Positions 27,334-50,730 of a DNA stretch of 64,000 nt are shown in pieces. The DNA is from Candidatus Harrisonbacteria bacterium. Lineage in GTDB: Bacteria; Patescibacteriota; Minisyncoccia; UBA6257; 1-14-0-10-40-38. How positions within the stretch are numbered: position 1 is the first letter of the stretch; every line of letters starts with the position of its first letter. The stretch lies in assembly GCA_023245035.1 (NCBI GenBank), contig JAHFLD010000002.1, forward strand, positions 67,297 to 131,296, in the 5' to 3' direction. The position numbers and the translations under genes were made by a program. A model generated the notes under the pieces. It did no database searches and was not told where the DNA came from. It saw only the letters and a list, made by a program, of their open reading frames with translations.

Positions 27334-28284
27334 GTGGAGAGAAAGGGGTTAGCTTTGGATGAGCCGAAGGTTCTGTTGGTTGAGCTGAAGATCCCGCGTT
27401 TTTGGACGCTTGGGATGTGGGTTTCCGTTTCCCTTCTCGGTTTGGCGATGGTTTTTTGGTTCGTAGTTCAGCTTTACATGCAGCGAGAGTTTGGCAGGAT
27501 TGATGAGTCCCTAGCGAGGTGGAAGGCCGAAGATGCAAAGACGGCTTCGCTGAATTTGAAGACCGAAGAGACAAAGACGACTCCGCTGTTTCATGACGAT
27601 GGTTCCGTTTTCAAGTCGGACTACGCTTATTCCGATGGCTACTTACCACGAAGCGTGGCGGCGCAGGTGGCAATTCTTCGCGAGCATTTTCCGCAGTTGG
27701 GTTCGTTTGACGAGAATCTGGCGATGCAATTTCTTCCAAGGGGCGCCGAAGCCAACTTCGCCATGCCGAAGTGGCAGAAGATTGACCCGGATTATCCCAG
27801 GGCGGTGCAAAAGATGCTTGGCGCGTCGCACTTGAGCGGCGAGGGTTTCGGGGCTATACCTTCAAGCTTTTCTTTCGATGGCGAGCATTTGGTTTCTATT
27901 CCGCGAACCGTTAATTTTCGAGGCACACTTTACAGCCGTCAAGGACAACACGACATCGTGGTGGTGCCGGCGCAATTTGGCGGGAAGTACGCGGGAAGAT
28001 CGCCGTCGGAGATTGATTTCCGTTTGCCAAGCAATGAGTTTGTCTTTGGCGCCTTTGAACTTGCGGTCTACTATCTGACTCACCCAGAGCGATTGCGCTC
28101 GGAGCGAGACGCTGGTTTGATTGCGGTAGGCGATGAGTGCTGTTTGACTCGTCCGGGTGAGGGAGTTGTTTTTAATATGGCGCCTTGCTTGCTCCAAAAG
28201 AGCAAGTCCGTTCTTTTTTCCTTGCAACTGAAGCACAACTCGTTTGCGTCGTTCGGTTCGCCGACGTGCTTCTTGTCTGAATAG
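27334..28284 (+). CDS. hypothetical membrane-anchored protein inserted between fusA and tuf
   Basis: 316-aa ORF with one N-terminal TM helix, its own terminator (28291-28329) and flanked by repeat families C and D; no recognizable domain. Confidence 0.5.
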   Translation: MERKGLALDEPKVLLVELKIPRFWTLGMWVSVSLLGLAMVFWFVVQLYMQREFGRIDESLARWKAEDAKTASLNLKTEETKTTPLFHDDGSVFKSDYAYSDGYLPRSVAAQVAILREHFPQLGSFDENLAMQFLPRGAEANFAMPKWQKIDPDYPRAVQKMLGASHLSGEGFGAIPSSFSFDGEHLVSIPRTVNFRGTLYSRQGQHDIVVVPAQFGGKYAGRSPSEIDFRLPSNEFVFGAFELAVYYLTHPERLRSERDAGLIAVGDECCLTRPGEGVVFNMAPCLLQKSKSVLFSLQLKHNSFASFGSPTCFLSE

Positions 28285-28290
28285 TCGGTT

Positions 28291-28329
28291 AAGCCATCTT
28301 CCGTTTTACGGGCGATGGCTTTTTTATTT
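28291..28329 (+). terminator. rho-independent terminator (AAGCCATC...GATGGCTT plus TTTTTTATTT)
   Basis: Hairpin plus T-tract immediately after the stop of the inserted ORF. Confidence 0.6.
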
Positions 28330-28342
28330 GTACACAGGCTTA

Positions 28343-28371
28343 TTGACACTATTTAGGGGTTTGTCTACAAT
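28343..28371 (+). promoter_or_regulatory. sigma70-like promoter for tuf (TTGACA, 17-nt spacer, TACAAT)
   Basis: Consensus -35 at 28343-28348 and -10 at 28366-28371, ~90 nt upstream of tuf. Confidence 0.55.
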
Positions 28372-28460
28372 TCAGATATCGCTGCTTGATAGTGGCGGCC
28401 TTGCTTTCTTTCCTGCAAAATCAGTGAGAGGCGAGAAATTATAAACCCATATCAAAAACC

Positions 28461-29660
28461 ATGGCAGAAAAGGAAAAATTTGAAAGAACCAAACCCCACG
28501 TTAACGTCGGAACGATTGGCCACGTTGACCACGGCAAGACGACCTTGACCGCGGCTTTGACTCACGTTTTGCACTTGAACGGCTTGGCTAAGAAAGAGGA
28601 GTCGGTGGACATGATTGACAACGCGCCTGAAGAAAAAGCGCGCGGTATTACTATTGCTTTGCACCACTCGGAATATGAGTCTGCCAAGAGGCACTACGCG
28701 CACATCGATGCTCCGGGACACGCTGACTATATTAAGAACATGATTACCGGCGCCGCGCAGATGGATGGCGCGATTTTGGTTGTTTCGGCGGCTGACGGTC
28801 CGATGCCGCAGACTCGAGAGCACATTCTTTTGGCCCGCCAAGTCGGCGTGCCTTCGGTTGTGGTTTTCTTGAATAAGTGCGACATGGTGGATGATCCGGA
28901 GCTGATTGATTTGGTGGAATCCGAAGTTCGGGAGTTGCTCAAAAAATATGAGTTCCCCGGAGATACCACGCCAATCATTCGCGGTTCGGCCTTGAAGGCT
29001 TTGGAGACGACCTCCGGTTCCAGCGCCGAGGCGAAGCCGATTTTGGATTTGGTTAAGGCGCTTGATGAATTTATTCCGGATCCGGTTCGGGAGACTAACA
29101 AGCCATTCTTGATGCCGGTGGAAGATATCTTCTCTATTGAAGGACGCGGAACGGTGGTAACCGGACGGGTGGAGAGAGGCAAGTTAAAGATTAACGATGA
29201 AATAGAGGTTATCGGTTTGCGACCGAATCAAAAGACGGTAGTAACCGGGATTGAAATGTTTAATAAGTTGCTGGATGAGGCCCAAGCCGGGGACAATGTC
29301 GGCTTGCTCTTGCGTGGTTTGAAAAAAGAAGACGTGGAGCGCGGTCAGGTGCTCGCCAAGGCGGGATCAGTTAATCCGCACGCCGAGTTTGACGCCGAGG
29401 TTTACGTCCTTTCCAAAGAGGAGGGTGGACGACACACGCCGTTTTTCAAGGGCTATAAGCCGCAGTTCTATATTCGCACCACCGACGTGACCGGAGAGGT
29501 TACTTTGCCGGAGGGAATGGAGATGGTGATGCCGGGAGATACGGTAAAAGTCGTGGTCAAGCTAATTTCGCCGGTGGCGCTTGAAGAGAAGCAGCGCTTT
29601 GCGATTCGGGAGGGAGGCAAGACCGTCGGCGCCGGCGTCGTGACGAAGATCATCAAGTAA
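28461..29660 (+). CDS. tuf: elongation factor Tu
   Basis: [19 protein letters not shown] motifs; 399 aa. Confidence 0.98.
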
Positions 29661-29764
29661 TAAATATCAACTAATAACGAATTTTTTACGAATATACGAA
29701 TAAAAAATTAATTTGAATCTATTCGCTCATTCGGGATTGATTCGCTATTCGTTGATGAAAGCTT

Positions 29765-38440: not shown

Positions 38441-39709
38441 ATGTCGCGCTTTTTGCAGATTTTTAAGATTCCCGATCTGCGCAATAAGGTTTTTATTGTG
38501 CTCTCGCTTTTGATTGTCTTTCGTTTGTTGTCGGCGATTCCAATTCCGGGAATTGATCCAATTCGGCTGAAGAACTTTTTTGAATCCAGCCAGCTTTTTG
38601 GCTTGTTCAGCGTTTTTTCCGGCGGTTCTTTGAGCAATCTTTCGGTGGTGATGCTGGGTGTCGGTCCCTACATTACGGCGACCATCATCATGCAGCTGTT
38701 GACGATGATTTTTCCGGCGCTTAAGGTTTTGTATCACGAGGAGGGAAGTTTGGGACGAGCCAAATTCAATCGATATTCCCGTTATTTGACGGTGCCGCTC
38801 GCGGCTCTTTCGGGTTATGGCTTTTTGAACTTGCTGATTAATCAAGGGGCACTTCCGGAATTGGCCTTGTTGCCCATGCTCCGAAACGTGATTTTGATTA
38901 CTGCCGGGTCAATGGTTTTGATGTGGATCGGCGAGCTGATTACCGAGCAGAAGCTTGGCAATGGAACTTCGCTGATTATTTTTGCCGGTATTGTAAGCCG
39001 GTTGCCGACCATCGTGCGGACGGCCGTTTTTTCTTATGATCCGGCGACCTTGCCGACCTATATCGCCTTTGTGCTGTTAAGCGTGGTCATTATCGGCGGG
39101 GTGGTTTTTGTGAATCAAGGCGAGCGCAAGGTGCCGATTTCTTACTCCAAACGAATTCGGGGTAACCGGGTTTATGGCGGAGCCGTGAGCTACTTGCCGC
39201 TTCGCGTCAATCAGGCCGGTGTCATTCCAATTATTTTTGCGATTTCCATCTTGTTGTTTCCGCAATTTTTTGCGCAAATAATCTCCATCTTCTCAACTTC
39301 GGTTTCGTTGAAGCTAACTGAACTAGTGACGCGCTTTTTGAGCCATCAAATTATTTACGCGATTATTTATTTCGCTTTAGTCGTAATTTTTACCTACTTT
39401 TATACTGCGGTCACTTTTGATTCCAAAGAAATTTCCAAAAATCTGCAACGAAGCGGGGGCTTTATTCCCGGTATTCGTCCCGGAGAGTCCACGGGAGACT
39501 TCTTGGCGGGAATTACCCGGAGTATTACCTTGTTTGGCGCCTTGTTTTTGGGTGTTGTAGCCGTATTGCCAAACATTACTCAAATCGTTACCGGTATTCC
39601 GTCGCTGACCATTGGAGGTACCGCGCTTTTAATTGTGGTTTCGGTGGCGCTTGAAGTTATGAAACAAGTTGATTCGCAGTTGACGGTTCGTGAATACGAA
39701 GGGGCTTAA
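38441..39709 (+). CDS. secY: preprotein translocase subunit SecY
   Basis: 10-TM SecY with conserved plug and hinge regions. Confidence 0.97.
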   Translation: MSRFLQIFKIPDLRNKVFIVLSLLIVFRLLSAIPIPGIDPIRLKNFFESSQLFGLFSVFSGGSLSNLSVVMLGVGPYITATIIMQLLTMIFPALKVLYHEEGSLGRAKFNRYSRYLTVPLAALSGYGFLNLLINQGALPELALLPMLRNVILITAGSMVLMWIGELITEQKLGNGTSLIIFAGIVSRLPTIVRTAVFSYDPATLPTYIAFVLLSVVIIGGVVFVNQGERKVPISYSKRIRGNRVYGGAVSYLPLRVNQAGVIPIIFAISILLFPQFFAQIISIFSTSVSLKLTELVTRFLSHQIIYAIIYFALVVIFTYFYTAVTFDSKEISKNLQRSGGFIPGIRPGESTGDFLAGITRSITLFGALFLGVVAVLPNITQIVTGIPSLTIGGTALLIVVSVALEVMKQVDSQLTVREYEGA

Positions 39710-39719
39710 ATAAACTTTT

Positions 39720-39900
39720 TTTAGGCAACACGCTCCCGCGAATATATCTTAAGTCGCTCCTAACGAAACTTTACCGCCCTGCTTCTTCGCCCGCGGGCAC
39801 CCGGTTAAAGTTTCTATTCACTCCTAAAGATATCACTTCGCCTCCGCTGAAGTTGCCTGAAAAAGTTTATTCTCGCTGTTGGTGGGGTGGTTGGCGACTT
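39720..39900. repeat. intergenic repeat cluster (family D-related) between secY and the inserted ORF
   Basis: CTCGCTGTTGGTGGGGTGG and CGCCTCCGCTGAAGTTGCCTG segments resemble 50590-50726 and family C/D motifs. Confidence 0.45.
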
Positions 39901-39939
39901 GACTTTTGGTGGCTTTAAGTTGTATAGTCTAAAAGTTCT

Positions 39940-40752
39940 TTGAAAATAGGCATTTTAGCTCTAAAACGCGTGGTTTTGGAGGTGCCTGGAAGTGGTCGCC
40001 TGGGATCCGCGAAAACAGGATCCGGAAAGGCAAGTAGCATGGCTGCGAATACCGGCGATGCTCGAGTGGTTCTTTGGGAGCGCCTCATGGCGCTTTTCTC
40101 AAGTGCGATTGAACTTACGCGAAGCGGAAGGCGTTCGCTTGAAGAGTTTGTGGACTTGCTTGAGCTAGTGAATCACAAGCCAAACTTCATGGAGCAGGCG
40201 ATTGCGCCGATGATGCAGAATTGCTTGCTTCAGGAATGGAAGCGGTTCTACTCTGATCATGAAATTGAACTTGATACCGAGAACATCAAGATCCCGGAGA
40301 GACCGAGCAAGGCATGGGATCTGATCGTAGTGCCTGGTGGTAGATCGGTAAACGGCTTGCTCAAAATTGCTCGTGTTAATCCTGAGCAAGTGAACAAGGA
40401 TTGCGGTCGACAGGATTCATTTGAGAAGCTTTCAGCTGATCCCTATGCTCTCTGGGTTTTGAAGTCTCCATTTCCGGATCAAACAAATACTCGTCCGGAG
40501 CATGTATCGTCTGGCTTCTCCGCCAGAGAGAATGAAGGAGATCGAGCGCTCAATCTTCAGGAATATCTGCTTTACAGTGCCTTCGTGTTTTGGCAGACAC
40601 AGGATCCGCTTGATGTTACCTCTCTCACTCTGGCTGTCTGTGGGGACGCGACTTACGAAGCCTATTGGAGCGGCTATGGAGTCGAAATCAAACCCTTCCG
40701 TGGCAGTATGTTTGGCCCAAGGTTTATTGGTTCGCGTCTTGCGAGCGGCTAG
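39940..40752 (+). CDS. hypothetical protein inserted between secY and adk
   Basis: 270-aa ORF (start uncertain), own terminator at 40766-40798, flanked by repeat copies; no recognizable domain. Confidence 0.45.
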   Translation: MKIGILALKRVVLEVPGSGRLGSAKTGSGKASSMAANTGDARVVLWERLMALFSSAIELTRSGRRSLEEFVDLLELVNHKPNFMEQAIAPMMQNCLLQEWKRFYSDHEIELDTENIKIPERPSKAWDLIVVPGGRSVNGLLKIARVNPEQVNKDCGRQDSFEKLSADPYALWVLKSPFPDQTNTRPEHVSSGFSARENEGDRALNLQEYLLYSAFVFWQTQDPLDVTSLTLAVCGDATYEAYWSGYGVEIKPFRGSMFGPRFIGSRLASG

Positions 40753-40765
40753 CTGGAGAGTCTCT

Positions 40766-40798
40766 TCGCCCCGATTAATTTCGGGGCGATTTTTTTTA
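40766..40798 (+). terminator. rho-independent terminator (TCGCCCCGA-TTAATT-TCGGGGCGA plus T8)
   Basis: Perfect 9-bp stem plus TTTTTTTT. Confidence 0.7.
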
Positions 40799-40809
40799 TA
40801 GTCAACGAG

Positions 40810-40858
40810 CTCGCCTCCGCTCGACCTGCTTGCCGGCAGGCAGGGCTACGGACGAATG
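40810..40858. repeat. family C repeat copy C3
   Basis: CTCGCCTCCGCTCGACCTGCTTGCCGGCAGGCAGGGCTACGGACG, near-identical to 9013-9060. Confidence 0.7.
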
Positions 40859-40898
40859 AATGCAAGAGCGATAAATCTTGATGTGCTACAATTTGGTT

Positions 40899-41585
40899 AT
40901 GCATAAAATCGCGGTTGTAATCTATGGACCGCCGGGATCGGGCAAGGGAACGCAAGCTAATCTGCTGGCCCTATCTCATGGCCTGATTCATTTTGACTCG
41001 GGACGTTTTATTGAGTTTTTGCTTAAAGATCCGCGCAACGCAGGTGATCCGGTGATTGATCGACAGCGGGCCTTGTTTGAAAAAGGCGAGCTTTGCGAAA
41101 CTGAATGGGTGATGGATGTTATCGGCCGGCAGACAAAAAAAATCGTCGCGGCAGATTTTGGCATTGTTCTTTCCGGATCGCCGCGAACTTTTTTTGAGGC
41201 TTTTGGCGACGACAAAACCAAAGGTATTTTGCCCTTGCTCCAAGAGGCTTATGGAAAGGAGGATGTTCACGTGGTTTTTTTGCGCGTCGAGGATAAAGTT
41301 TCTATCGAGCGCAATAGCCATCGTAAATTATGCACGACTTGCGGCACGCAGTTGATAAATAATCCGGAGCTCGTTAATCCCTTTTGCCCGTTTTGCGGCG
41401 GTTCGCTTTATACCCGCGTTTTTGACAATGAGGCAAAAATTGTGATAAGACTTGAGGAGTTTCGCAAGAAGACTTTGCCGATTTTAGAGGAGTTGCCGAG
41501 GCGGGGCATTAAACTTGCCGAAGTTAACGGTGAACTTCTGCCGTATTTGGTGCATCGAGAAATAGTCGAGAAGAGTTCGGTTTGA
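40899..41585 (+). CDS. adk: adenylate kinase with zinc-binding LID
   Basis: P-loop GPPGSGKGTQA; LID CTTCG...CPFCG. Confidence 0.93.
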   Translation: MHKIAVVIYGPPGSGKGTQANLLALSHGLIHFDSGRFIEFLLKDPRNAGDPVIDRQRALFEKGELCETEWVMDVIGRQTKKIVAADFGIVLSGSPRTFFEAFGDDKTKGILPLLQEAYGKEDVHVVFLRVEDKVSIERNSHRKLCTTCGTQLINNPELVNPFCPFCGGSLYTRVFDNEAKIVIRLEEFRKKTLPILEELPRRGIKLAEVNGELLPYLVHREIVEKSSV

Positions 41586-50559: not shown

Positions 50560-50730
50560 ATTTCGCCTGCGAGAACCTCTTGAAGAGAGATGTGTCCTCG
50601 CTGTTGGTGGAAATGAAGCTCCGAGAGCTTCCTGCAAAAGAAAATTCCTCGCTGGATGGAGGAGGCGAAGCTCCGAGAACTCCCCGCGTAATAAAAGTCC
50701 TCACGGTTGGAGGGGTGGAATAATGGGTAA
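50560..50730. repeat. family D repeat cluster (internal direct repeat GAAGCTCCGAGAnCTxCC ... AAAGTCCTCACGGTTGGAGGGGTGGAATA)
   Basis: Aligns with 27055-27110 (GAAGCTCCGAGAGCTCCCCGCAAAATGAAAGTCCTCGCAGTTAGGGTGATGGAATA). Confidence 0.65.

What the first reader, a model, noticed from the sequence alone, without database searches (positions are those of the whole stretch)
39710..40870. Second inserted hypothetical gene, between secY and adk, again flanked by repeat copies and carrying its own terminator
secY-adk-map is a nearly universal adjacency. Here a 270-aa ORF (39940..40752) of unknown function lies between secY and adk. It is preceded by a family D-like repeat cluster (39720-39900) and followed by a strong terminator (40766-40798) and a family C copy (40810-40858). 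The architecture is the same as the fusA-tuf insertion.
Basis: partly seen in the sequence, partly recalled or inferred. Interest (0 to 1): 0.55.

Follow-up and report, generated by a model that had tools for sequence, protein, structure and literature searches.

The report
Stand-alone DGR variable-protein gene homologue
The unknown gene between secY and adk is a very divergent relative of the proteins that candidate-phyla (Patescibacteria) bacteria hypermutate with diversity-generating retroelements; here no retroelement lies within 64 kb, the gene forms its own regulated transcription unit, and the flanking repeats did not bring it in.

Summary
There is an ORF between secY and adk, a terminator, a family C repeat copy and a D-like repeat cluster.

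- **Gene:** The real gene is probably 40039-40752 (237 aa).
- **Family:** It belongs to a Patescibacteria-only family of about 240-aa proteins with no Pfam domain (family HMM E=4e-17). Predicted C-terminal domains have the C-type-lectin/FGE fold of the DGR variable proteins TvpA, Mtd and TaqVP. In 29 of 88 family loci the last ~120 nt recur downstream as a template repeat; 568 of 633 mismatches lie at template adenines, and Avd and reverse-transcriptase genes follow.
- **This copy:** The 64-kb window has no template repeat, Avd or RT. The protein is the family's most divergent member (57 bits against 213-316), and all assemblies give an identical sequence.
- **Age of the insertion:** The nearest relative (SecY 95% identical) carries the ortholog in the same slot at 43% identity. 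It has the same promoter, leader and terminator but lacks these repeats, so the repeats did not deliver the gene.
- **Hotspot:** 12 of 63 relatives carry unrelated cargo in the secY-adk slot.
- **Leader:** A conserved 5' leader has twin hairpins (loop CGAAAAC) bracketing the ribosome-binding site, with covariation across eight loci. It has no Rfam match.

The parts
38441..39709 (+). secY (context, upstream neighbour)
   Evidence: Pfam SecY 1.7e-96. 95% aa identity to L001.
39709..39871 (.). 163-nt imperfect palindrome that starts at the last base of the secY stop codon; built from D-like repeat material
   Evidence: Outer arms 39709-39729 and 39852-39871 are 92-100% complementary. The 171-nt stretch folds at -50.6 kcal/mol, z = -6.4 against my dinucleotide shuffles. 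Not alignable in L001.
39832..39896 (+). Diverged copy of the dispersed repeat family D1 (core TTCTCGCTGTTGGTGGGGTGG)
   Evidence: Aligns with D1 units at 27057, 50614 and 50666. A 14-mer is shared with 50597-50610.
39899..39928 (+). Sigma-70-type promoter TTGACT-18-TATAGT of the inserted gene
   Evidence: 10 of 12 consensus matches. TTGACT is conserved in L001.
39934..40038 (+). Conserved non-coding 5' leader: box GTTCTTTGA, hairpin P1, hairpin A and the Shine-Dalgarno sequence
   Evidence: 77-89% nt identity to L001 where neutral expectation is about 40%. An indel breaks the frame, so it is not coding. nhmmer finds a homologous leader in L099 (E = 9e-4). No Rfam match.
39948..39987 (+). Leader hairpin P1
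   Evidence: Present in the minimum-free-energy folds of the window, L001, L099, L081 and L168, with unrelated sequences. One A-U to C-G compensatory change between the window and L001.
40003..40023 (+). Leader hairpin A (stem GGAUCC/GGAUCC, loop core CGAAAAC 40010-40016)
   Evidence: Found 28-53 nt upstream of the ATG in L001, L081, L093, L099, L124, L166, L168 and L086, with covarying stems.
40024..40030 (+). Shine-Dalgarno-like GGAAAGG, 8 nt upstream of the ATG
   Evidence: Read from the sequence. Purine-rich AAAGG(A) sits at the same place in the related leaders.
40039..40752 (+). CDS of 237 aa: divergent homologue of Patescibacteria DGR variable proteins (N-terminal helical bundle plus C-terminal C-type-lectin/FGE-like domain)
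40042..40056 (+). Hairpin B inside codons 2-6 (stem GCUG/CGGC, loop CGAAUAC)
   Evidence: Loop starts at +7 from the ATG in all 8 loci. Stem changes are compensatory and non-synonymous (V/D to A/G to S/A).
40620..40749 (+). Segment equivalent to the variable region (VR) of DGR-linked relatives; no matching template repeat in the window
   Evidence: In relatives the last 119-146 nt is the VR. A word-7 blastn of 40560-40760 against the window finds nothing beyond itself.
40766..40798 (+). Intrinsic terminator (9-bp stem, loop TTAATT, T8)
   Evidence: Loop, 3' arm and T-run are identical in L001; the 5' arm has one substitution (C to U) that becomes a G-U pair. A hairpin, usually followed by a T-run, lies 30-50 nt after the stop in most family loci.
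40805..40854 (+). Family C dispersed repeat copy with palindromic core CCTGCTTGCCGGCAGGCAGG
   Evidence: Three copies in the window. 0 matches expected by chance. Absent from L001 and from all 165 fetched loci.
40884..40892 (+). Extended -10 element TGCTACAAT of adk's own promoter, ending 6 nt before the adk ATG
   Evidence: Read from the sequence. The block 40876-40920 is nearly identical in L001. Promoter function is inferred.
40899..41585 (+). adk (context, downstream neighbour)
   Evidence: Pfam ADK 6.3e-15. 87% aa identity to L001.

Best explanation
The gene at 40039-40752 encodes a cytoplasmic-looking two-domain protein: an N-terminal helical bundle and a C-terminal C-type-lectin/FGE-like ligand-binding domain. 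It descends from the Patescibacteria family of DGR variable (target) proteins. In this lineage it survives as a stand-alone copy with no template repeat, Avd or reverse transcriptase nearby, so its binding surface is most likely frozen rather than hypermutated. It evolves fast under weak purifying selection.

It entered the secY-adk slot before this organism and its nearest known relative diverged. That slot is a recurrent landing site for unrelated genes in this clade.

It works as an independent monocistronic unit:
- its own sigma-70-type promoter;
- a ~105-nt structured leader in which two near-identical hairpins (loop CGAAAAC) bracket the Shine-Dalgarno sequence and start codon. I infer these form a translational operator for an unidentified RNA-binding factor;
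- its own intrinsic terminator, after which adk restarts from its own promoter.

The flanking D-like palindrome and family C copy are unrelated, younger intergenic repeats.

Shown by tool results: family membership, fold, DGR linkage of relatives, absence of DGR parts in the window, orthology and rates, repeat absence in the relative, and hairpin covariation. Inferred only: loss (rather than remoteness) of the DGR, and the function of the hairpins.
For: Family and fold
- phmmer against 1.84 billion representatives finds 23 hits. A profile search finds 211 proteins, all from Patescibacteria-type sources, about 240 aa, no Pfam domain.
- An HMM of 50 typical members scores the window ORF at 57.3 bits, E = 4e-17.

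DGR linkage of relatives
- 29 family loci have a VR/TR pair. 568 of 633 mismatches are at TR adenines (for example L145 23/23, L162 25/25), with AAC-rich TRs. An Avd-like gene and an RT with a YxDD motif follow; Pfam bAvd and RVT_1 are recorded for L168.
- L166 and L168 are syntenic (target 61%, M16 peptidase 62%, aaRS 63% aa identity) and differ by presence or absence of TR-Avd-RT.
- 16 loci have no TR or RT within 1.5 kb or more on either side, yet keep family scores of 213-316 bits.

This copy
- The 64-kb window has no RT, Avd or TR.
- All cluster records are 100% identical.
- Many family-invariant residues are lost.

Age and selection
- The ortholog in L001 sits in the same slot at 43% aa identity, while neighbouring genes are 76-95% identical.
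- dS is about 1-1.5 and dN is 0.53, giving omega of about 0.3-0.6. Indels are in multiples of 3.

Transcription unit
- Promoter and terminator.
- Leader 77-89% conserved.
- Twin hairpins in 8 loci: 85.7% of cells paired against 61.8% in shuffles (0/500); covariation 0.632 against 0.201 (0/500); slid controls 0.15 or less.

Hotspot
- 12 of 63 relatives have 500 nt or more of unrelated cargo in the slot, including an SDR.
Against: - Only 64 kb of the genome could be examined, so a DGR elsewhere acting in trans on this gene is not excluded.
- The three identical records may come from the same or related samples, so the lack of population variation is weak evidence.
- The window hairpin A has a G-A mismatch at its closing pair, and the minimum-free-energy fold of the window leader prefers an alternative small hairpin over hairpin B.
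- The covariation test pooled A and B hairpins from only 8 loci, so relatedness inflates it.
- No ligand or function is known for any family member.
- The direction of change (DGR loss or DGR gain) at the L166/L168 locus is not resolved.
Confidence: 0.7

Rival explanations
1. Active remote DGR target. The gene is still hypermutated in its last ~40 codons by a DGR (TR-Avd-RT) located elsewhere in the genome, outside the 64-kb window.
For: - The family is a genuine DGR target family.
- Roux et al. 2021 (PMC8144416) state that remote targets exist and are missed by contig-based surveys.
- 16 scaffold-intact members lack a local TR or RT.
- The C-terminal two-thirds is the most divergent part against L001, at about 43% nt identity.
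- An RSR-like end of the VR (GGTTCGCG) and a downstream hairpin are retained.
Against: - No TR, Avd or RT in 64 kb.
- Divergence against L001 is not confined to the VR. It covers all of residues 100-237, with omega below 1.
- Scaffold residues that DGR targets keep invariant are lost (GSR, the EADEE block, H of HLD), and the score is 57 bits against 213-316.
- Records from several assemblies are 100% identical.
Confidence: 0.12
2. Recently inserted mobile cassette bounded by dispersed repeats. The D-like cluster and the family C copy mark the junctions of a transposed or recombined unit, as proposed for the fusA-tuf ORF.
For: - Repeats lie on both sides of the ORF.
- Copies of the same two families also lie upstream of the fusA-tuf ORF (27057-27184).
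- The slot is empty in most relatives.
Against: - The ortholog in L001 occupies the same slot without either repeat.
- The insertion predates a divergence with dS of about 1 or more, whereas the repeat copies are 74-90% identical within the genome.
- The two flanks belong to different families, with no direct repeat at the junctions.
- Repeats lie outside the conserved promoter-to-terminator unit.
- No mobility gene, and normal GC content.
- Family C also occurs at 9008, where no insertion is evident.
Confidence: 0.05
3. Decaying remnant. The ORF is a functionless relic of a lost DGR cassette, drifting towards pseudogenisation.
For: - It is the most divergent family member and has lost family-invariant residues.
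- Omega rises to about 0.6 in the C-terminal part when scaled to the background dS.
Against: - The frame is intact in both lineages after dS above 1, with only 3n indels.
- Codon-position identity runs 2>1>3 even in the C-terminal part.
- Promoter, leader hairpins and terminator are kept at 77-100% identity where neutral DNA would be about 40%.
- The AlphaFold2 model is confident at pLDDT 85.8.
Confidence: 0.08

Closest known systems
Variable (target) proteins of Patescibacteria/CPR diversity-generating retroelements (DGR clade 2 of Roux et al. 2021, PMC8144416; first surveyed, from memory, by Paul et al. 2017 Nat Microbiol)
   Same: - Sequence family (E = 4e-17 to a profile of typical members).
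- About 240 aa, with no signal peptide, transmembrane segment or Pfam domain. Roux et al. report the same for CPR targets.
- C-terminal C-type-lectin-like fold.
- A terminator hairpin after the stop codon.
   Different: - No TR, Avd or RT within 64 kb.
- Scaffold motifs are degraded (57 bits against 213-316).
- No sequence variation among the available records.
- Sits inside the ribosomal-protein / secY-adk-map gene string.
Structurally characterised DGR variable proteins: Mtd (1yu0), TvpA (2y3c), TaqVP (5vf4), and the FGE/sulfatase-modifying-factor fold
   Different: - Only 5-13% sequence identity.
- Different N-terminal domain (a three- or four-helix bundle).
- No trimerisation or surface-anchoring domain.
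REP/MITE-like dispersed intergenic repeats
   Same: The family C and D elements are short (50-60 nt), hairpin-forming, intergenic and multi-copy. They differ between close relatives.
   Different: No transposase, terminal inverted repeat with target-site duplication, or REP-associated transposase was identified. Their function and mobility were not tested.
Translational operators made of hairpins flanking the ribosome-binding site (for example CsrA/RsmA sites or phage coat-protein operators; recalled from general knowledge)
   Same: Two similar small hairpins with a conserved loop and covarying stems, one upstream of the Shine-Dalgarno sequence and one immediately after the AUG.
   Different: - The loop is CGAAAAC, not a GGA motif.
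- No binding factor is known.
- No Rfam family matches.
- Function is inferred only.

Membership tests
DGR variable (target) protein | Homology to proteins whose 3' end is a VR paired with a TR | tested here: met
   The family HMM, built without the window sequence, gives 57.3 bits, E = 4e-17. 29 family loci carry VR/TR pairs.
DGR variable (target) protein | C-type-lectin / FGE-like fold carrying the variable residues at the C-terminus | tested here: met
DGR variable (target) protein | Cognate template repeat with adenine-specific mismatches to the VR | tested here: not met
   A word-7 blastn of 40560-40760 against the whole window finds only itself. The repeat finder gives no pair. Only 64 kb of the genome was searchable.
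DGR variable (target) protein | DGR reverse transcriptase and Avd accessory gene in the locus | tested here: not met
   tblastn with two family-linked RTs and two Avds gives no hit better than E = 0.19 in the window, and none in L001-L080.
DGR variable (target) protein | Sequence hypervariability of the VR within populations | tested here: inconclusive
   Three cluster records on 5 contigs are 100% identical. Sample independence is unknown and reads could not be examined.
Repeat-bounded mobile insertion (MITE/IS/cassette) | Matching terminal repeats at both junctions, target-site duplication, or a mobility gene | tested here: not met
   The upstream flank is a D-like palindrome and the downstream flank is family C, which are different families. 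The unit contains one CDS with no Pfam, PHROGs or PADLOC hit.
Repeat-bounded mobile insertion (MITE/IS/cassette) | Presence/absence polymorphism whose junctions coincide with the repeat ends | tested here: not met
   L001 has the gene, promoter, leader and terminator but neither repeat. Relatives with an empty slot are too distant (SecY 74% or less) to map junctions.
Known cis-regulatory RNA families (Rfam 15) | Covariance-model match to the leader | tested here: not met
   At gathering threshold only two tRNAs match in the window. At E up to 10 on 39650-40950, only chance-level hits appear, far below gathering scores.
Intrinsic (Rho-independent) terminator | G+C-rich stem-loop followed by a T-run just after the stop codon | tested here: met
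   40766-40789 has a 9-bp stem with 7 G-C pairs, followed by T8. It is conserved in L001 with one G-U-compatible substitution.

The most novel reading that the evidence does not exclude
The P1 plus twin-hairpin 5' leader (loop CGAAAAC on covarying stems, one copy upstream of the Shine-Dalgarno sequence and one inside codons 2-6) is a previously undescribed cis-regulatory RNA dedicated to a subfamily of Patescibacteria DGR variable-protein genes. It is kept whether or not the retroelement is still present. That would imply the variable proteins are under tight translational control by a hairpin-binding factor, possibly the protein's own N-terminal helical domain. It would also imply that DGR-less copies such as this one are retained as regulated, fixed-specificity binding proteins.
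Probability: 0.4. Interest if true: 0.6.

Novelty: new variant of a known kind. Interest (0 to 1): 0.45.

Why it matters
CPR/Patescibacteria are the bacterial group most enriched in DGRs. Their target proteins have no recognisable domains, and it is unresolved whether they are membrane-bound or what they bind (Roux et al. 2021).

This locus, with the family census made here, shows three things:
- The targets form one coherent family of about 240 aa with a C-type-lectin-like fold.
- About a third of adequately flanked members (16 against 29 DGR-linked) have no local DGR engine. One syntenic pair differs only by that engine.
- A subfamily carries a conserved structured leader.

This gives a concrete handle for asking how these proteins are regulated and what happens to a hypermutation target once the mutator is gone. 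For genome annotation, it turns a 'hypothetical protein interrupting secY-adk' into a classifiable gene. It also warns against reading nearby dispersed repeats as insertion scars.

Tried and rejected
Searches that found nothing
- Pfam, NCBIfam, PADLOC and PHROGs scans of the ORF and typical relatives gave no significant hit.
- A profile search of PDB sequences found nothing (best E = 1.5).
- Foldseek against the PDB gave no hit at E of 0.001 or better.
- The afdb50 library was unavailable.
- The word-indexed protein search with the single ORF found only itself.
It worked with A4.
- The look-up of the 237-aa form was not on record.
- No DNA was obtainable for the contigs that carry the window's own gene.
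- Tandem Repeats Finder found nothing in 9000-9850.

Ideas rejected
- Foreign composition: GC is 0.47-0.52 across the unit, like its neighbours.
- Divergence beyond the neutral rate, implying hypermutation or allele replacement. This looked plausible from the 43% against 95% contrast. It was dropped once the background dS was found to be about 1-1.5 and omega about 0.3-0.6.
- The cargo in the secY-adk gap of other relatives being distant homologues of this ORF: phmmer and the family HMM found none, and the cargos are unrelated to one another.
- The leader hairpins marking only DGR-less copies: L168 has both the hairpins and a full DGR.

Full report
**Observation.** The window is a ribosomal-protein / secY-adk-map region of a Patescibacteria (Paceibacteria, Harrisonbacteria-like) genome. 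SecY-based retrieval returned 80 related MAG loci of that group.
- Between secY (38441-39709) and adk (40899-41585) lies an open frame, 39940-40752.
- It is followed by a clean intrinsic terminator at 40766-40798.
- Next comes a copy of a 50-nt dispersed repeat ('family C', 40805-40854), with further copies at 9008 and 27135 and 0 matches expected by chance.
- Upstream, 39709-39871 is a 163-nt imperfect palindrome (z = -6.4 against my shuffles). Its right arm and the next 25 nt align with the 'family D' units at 27057, 50614 and 50666.
Only the start codon needs correcting, to ATG 40039 (237 aa).

**Real gene, old insertion.** The nearest relative available, L001, has SecY at 95% and Adk at 87% aa identity. 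It carries an ortholog in the same slot at only 43% identity, while the other 19 genes compared are 60-95% identical.
- All indels in the CDS alignment are multiples of three.
- Codon-position identity runs 2>1>3, even in the most divergent part.
- Background dS between the two genomes is about 1-1.5, and the ORF's dN is 0.53 (0.30 in the N-terminal 100 codons, 0.77 in the rest). That gives omega of about 0.3-0.6: weak purifying selection, not super-neutral change.
- At this dS, neutral DNA should be about 40% identical. Three segments are therefore under selection: the promoter-proximal leader (77-89%), the terminator (identical apart from one G-U-compatible change) and the adk promoter region (about 100%). 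The repeat-bearing segments are unalignable.
- L001 lacks the family C copy and the palindrome, and has a different, D2-like repeat upstream.
- Family C copies within this genome are 74-90% identical, so they spread after the gene was in place.
- The slot itself is a hotspot. 42 of 63 relatives have a gap of 161 nt or less, but 12 have 500-1480 nt holding mutually unrelated ORFs: an SDR in L003, membrane or lipoprotein-like proteins, and unknowns.

**What the protein is.** The usual libraries give nothing.
- An exhaustive phmmer search found 23 representatives. A profile search found 211 proteins of about 240 aa; every source name given is a Patescibacteria/CPR 'hypothetical protein'.
- AlphaFold2 models of the window protein (pLDDT 85.8) and of a typical member (93.6) show an N-terminal helical bundle and a C-terminal alpha/beta domain.

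**DGR linkage of the family.** Fetching 80 metagenomic loci of the family gave the decisive result.
- In 29 loci the last 119-146 nt of the gene is repeated 250-400 nt downstream.
- 568 of 633 mismatches fall on adenines of the downstream copy, which is rich in AAC codons.
- An Avd-like four-helix gene and a reverse transcriptase with a YxDD motif follow (Pfam bAvd and RVT_1 in L168).
- The family is therefore a DGR variable-protein family. This matches Roux et al. 2021, who describe CPR 'clade 2' DGR targets as lacking transmembrane or other recognisable domains.

**Status of this copy.**
- The 64-kb window has no RT, Avd or template repeat. Neither do L001-L080.
- 16 family loci have no TR or RT within 1.5 kb or more on either side, yet keep normal family scores (213-316 bits, against 247-316 for DGR-linked ones).
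- L166 and L168 are syntenic and differ only by the TR-Avd-RT module.
- The window protein (57 bits) and its L001 ortholog (53 bits) lie far outside both distributions. They have lost many invariant residues, including the EADEE block, the H of HLD and the GSR motif.
- All records of the protein in the 15-billion-sequence collection are identical.
- I conclude, with about 0.7 confidence, that this is a stand-alone, no-longer-diversified derivative. A remote DGR elsewhere in the genome remains possible (about 0.12) and could not be tested.

**The transcription unit and its leader.** The unit has a promoter TTGACT-18-TATAGT (39899-39928), a leader (39934-40038), the CDS and a terminator. adk then has its own extended -10 element (TGCTACAAT), ending 6 nt before its ATG. 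That is inferred from sequence and conserved in L001.
- The leader is non-coding: a frame-breaking indel sits in DNA that is still 85% identical.
- A homologous leader precedes family genes in unrelated metagenomes (nhmmer E = 9e-4 for L099).
- Its architecture is a GTTCTTTGA box, a long hairpin P1 of variable sequence, hairpin A, the Shine-Dalgarno sequence, the AUG, and hairpin B within codons 2-6.
- A and B share the loop CGA(A/U)AAC on stems that covary. Stems seen include GGAUCCG/CGGAUCC, GUCCCG/CGGGAC, CAUCCG/CGGAUG, UUAUCUG/CGGAUAA, GGUCG/CGACC and GCUG/CGGC.
- In hairpin B the compensatory changes are non-synonymous, which argues for RNA-level constraint.
- On 16 hairpins from 8 loci, 85.7% of cells pair (shuffles 61.8%, 0/500). 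The covariation score is 0.632 (shuffles 0.201, 0/500; slid controls 0.15 or less).
- Caveats: few and related sequences, pooled A and B hairpins, and in the window hairpin A has a G-A closing mismatch.
- L168 has both this leader and a complete DGR, so the leader is a subfamily trait rather than a marker of orphan copies.
- No Rfam family matches.
- A translational operator bound by an unknown factor is my inference, not a result.

**Verdict.** The gene is a new, degenerate, DGR-less variant of a known kind (CPR DGR variable proteins). It sits in a recurrent insertion slot of the ribosomal gene string and has a conserved, apparently undescribed structured leader. Interest is moderate.

Noticed in passing
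window 9130-9790: An array of about seven consecutive long hairpins (70-90 nt each) lies upstream of ORF 9812-11041. Each has GG(A/G)GAC in the 5' arm and GTTTTC(C) in the 3' arm, but the arms are otherwise unrelated. The 671-nt stretch folds at -279.7 kcal/mol. Tandem Repeats Finder sees nothing. Looks like a repeated structured-RNA array.
   Followed up: partly
window 40876-40901: adk appears to have its own extended -10 promoter (TGCTACAAT, 40884-40892), ending 6 nt before its ATG. This suggests a leaderless or near-leaderless adk mRNA. The block is nearly identical in L001.
   Followed up: no
window 1603-1780, 11179-11231, 13539-13636; L001 7290-7400: A further dispersed repeat family (CTCGCTCGCGCCTCGCACTCCAAGAAAAATCCTGCG, families D2/D5/D8) has a recognisable relative in L001. 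There it sits between secY and the inserted gene, where the window has the D-like palindrome instead.
   Followed up: partly
window 26897-28461: The fusA-tuf ORF (27334-28284, no Pfam hit) is preceded by a D1 copy (27057-27113) and a family C copy (27135-27184). A strong tuf promoter, TTGACA-17-TACAAT, follows at 28343-28371. The layout resembles the secY-adk unit, but the protein is unrelated to the DGR-target family.
   Followed up: partly
family loci L081-L165, 10-45 nt after the stop codon: Many family genes, both DGR-linked and orphan, carry one or two copies of a CTTGTWCC-like motif between the stop codon and the terminator hairpin (for example L117, L099, L114, L132). The window copy lacks it.
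   Followed up: no
L087, L101, L148: These loci hold two paralogous family genes near each other. Their 3' ends are 144-146 nt long and about 86-91% identical, with mismatches that are not adenine-specific. They are paralogue pairs rather than VR/TR pairs.
   Followed up: no
window 24168-24219 and 29665-29716: A 52-nt AT-rich repeat (TATCAAC.AAT.ACGAATTTTTTACGAATATACGAATAAA), 87% identical between copies, lies just upstream of two ribosomal-operon ORFs (starts at 24216 and 29765). It may be a shared promoter or operator.
   Followed up: no
window 6794-6881 and 11122-11209: An 88-nt direct repeat at 85% identity in two intergenic regions. It contains two hairpins (CTCCCTTCGGGAG and GTACTTGCATAAGTAC).
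   Followed up: no
L001-L080, secY-adk gap: In this clade the secY-adk junction is a recurrent insertion site. 12 of 63 loci carry 500-1480 nt of unrelated cargo: an SDR in L003, two paralogous membrane-like ORFs in L007, a lipoprotein-like ORF on the opposite strand in L025.
   Followed up: partly
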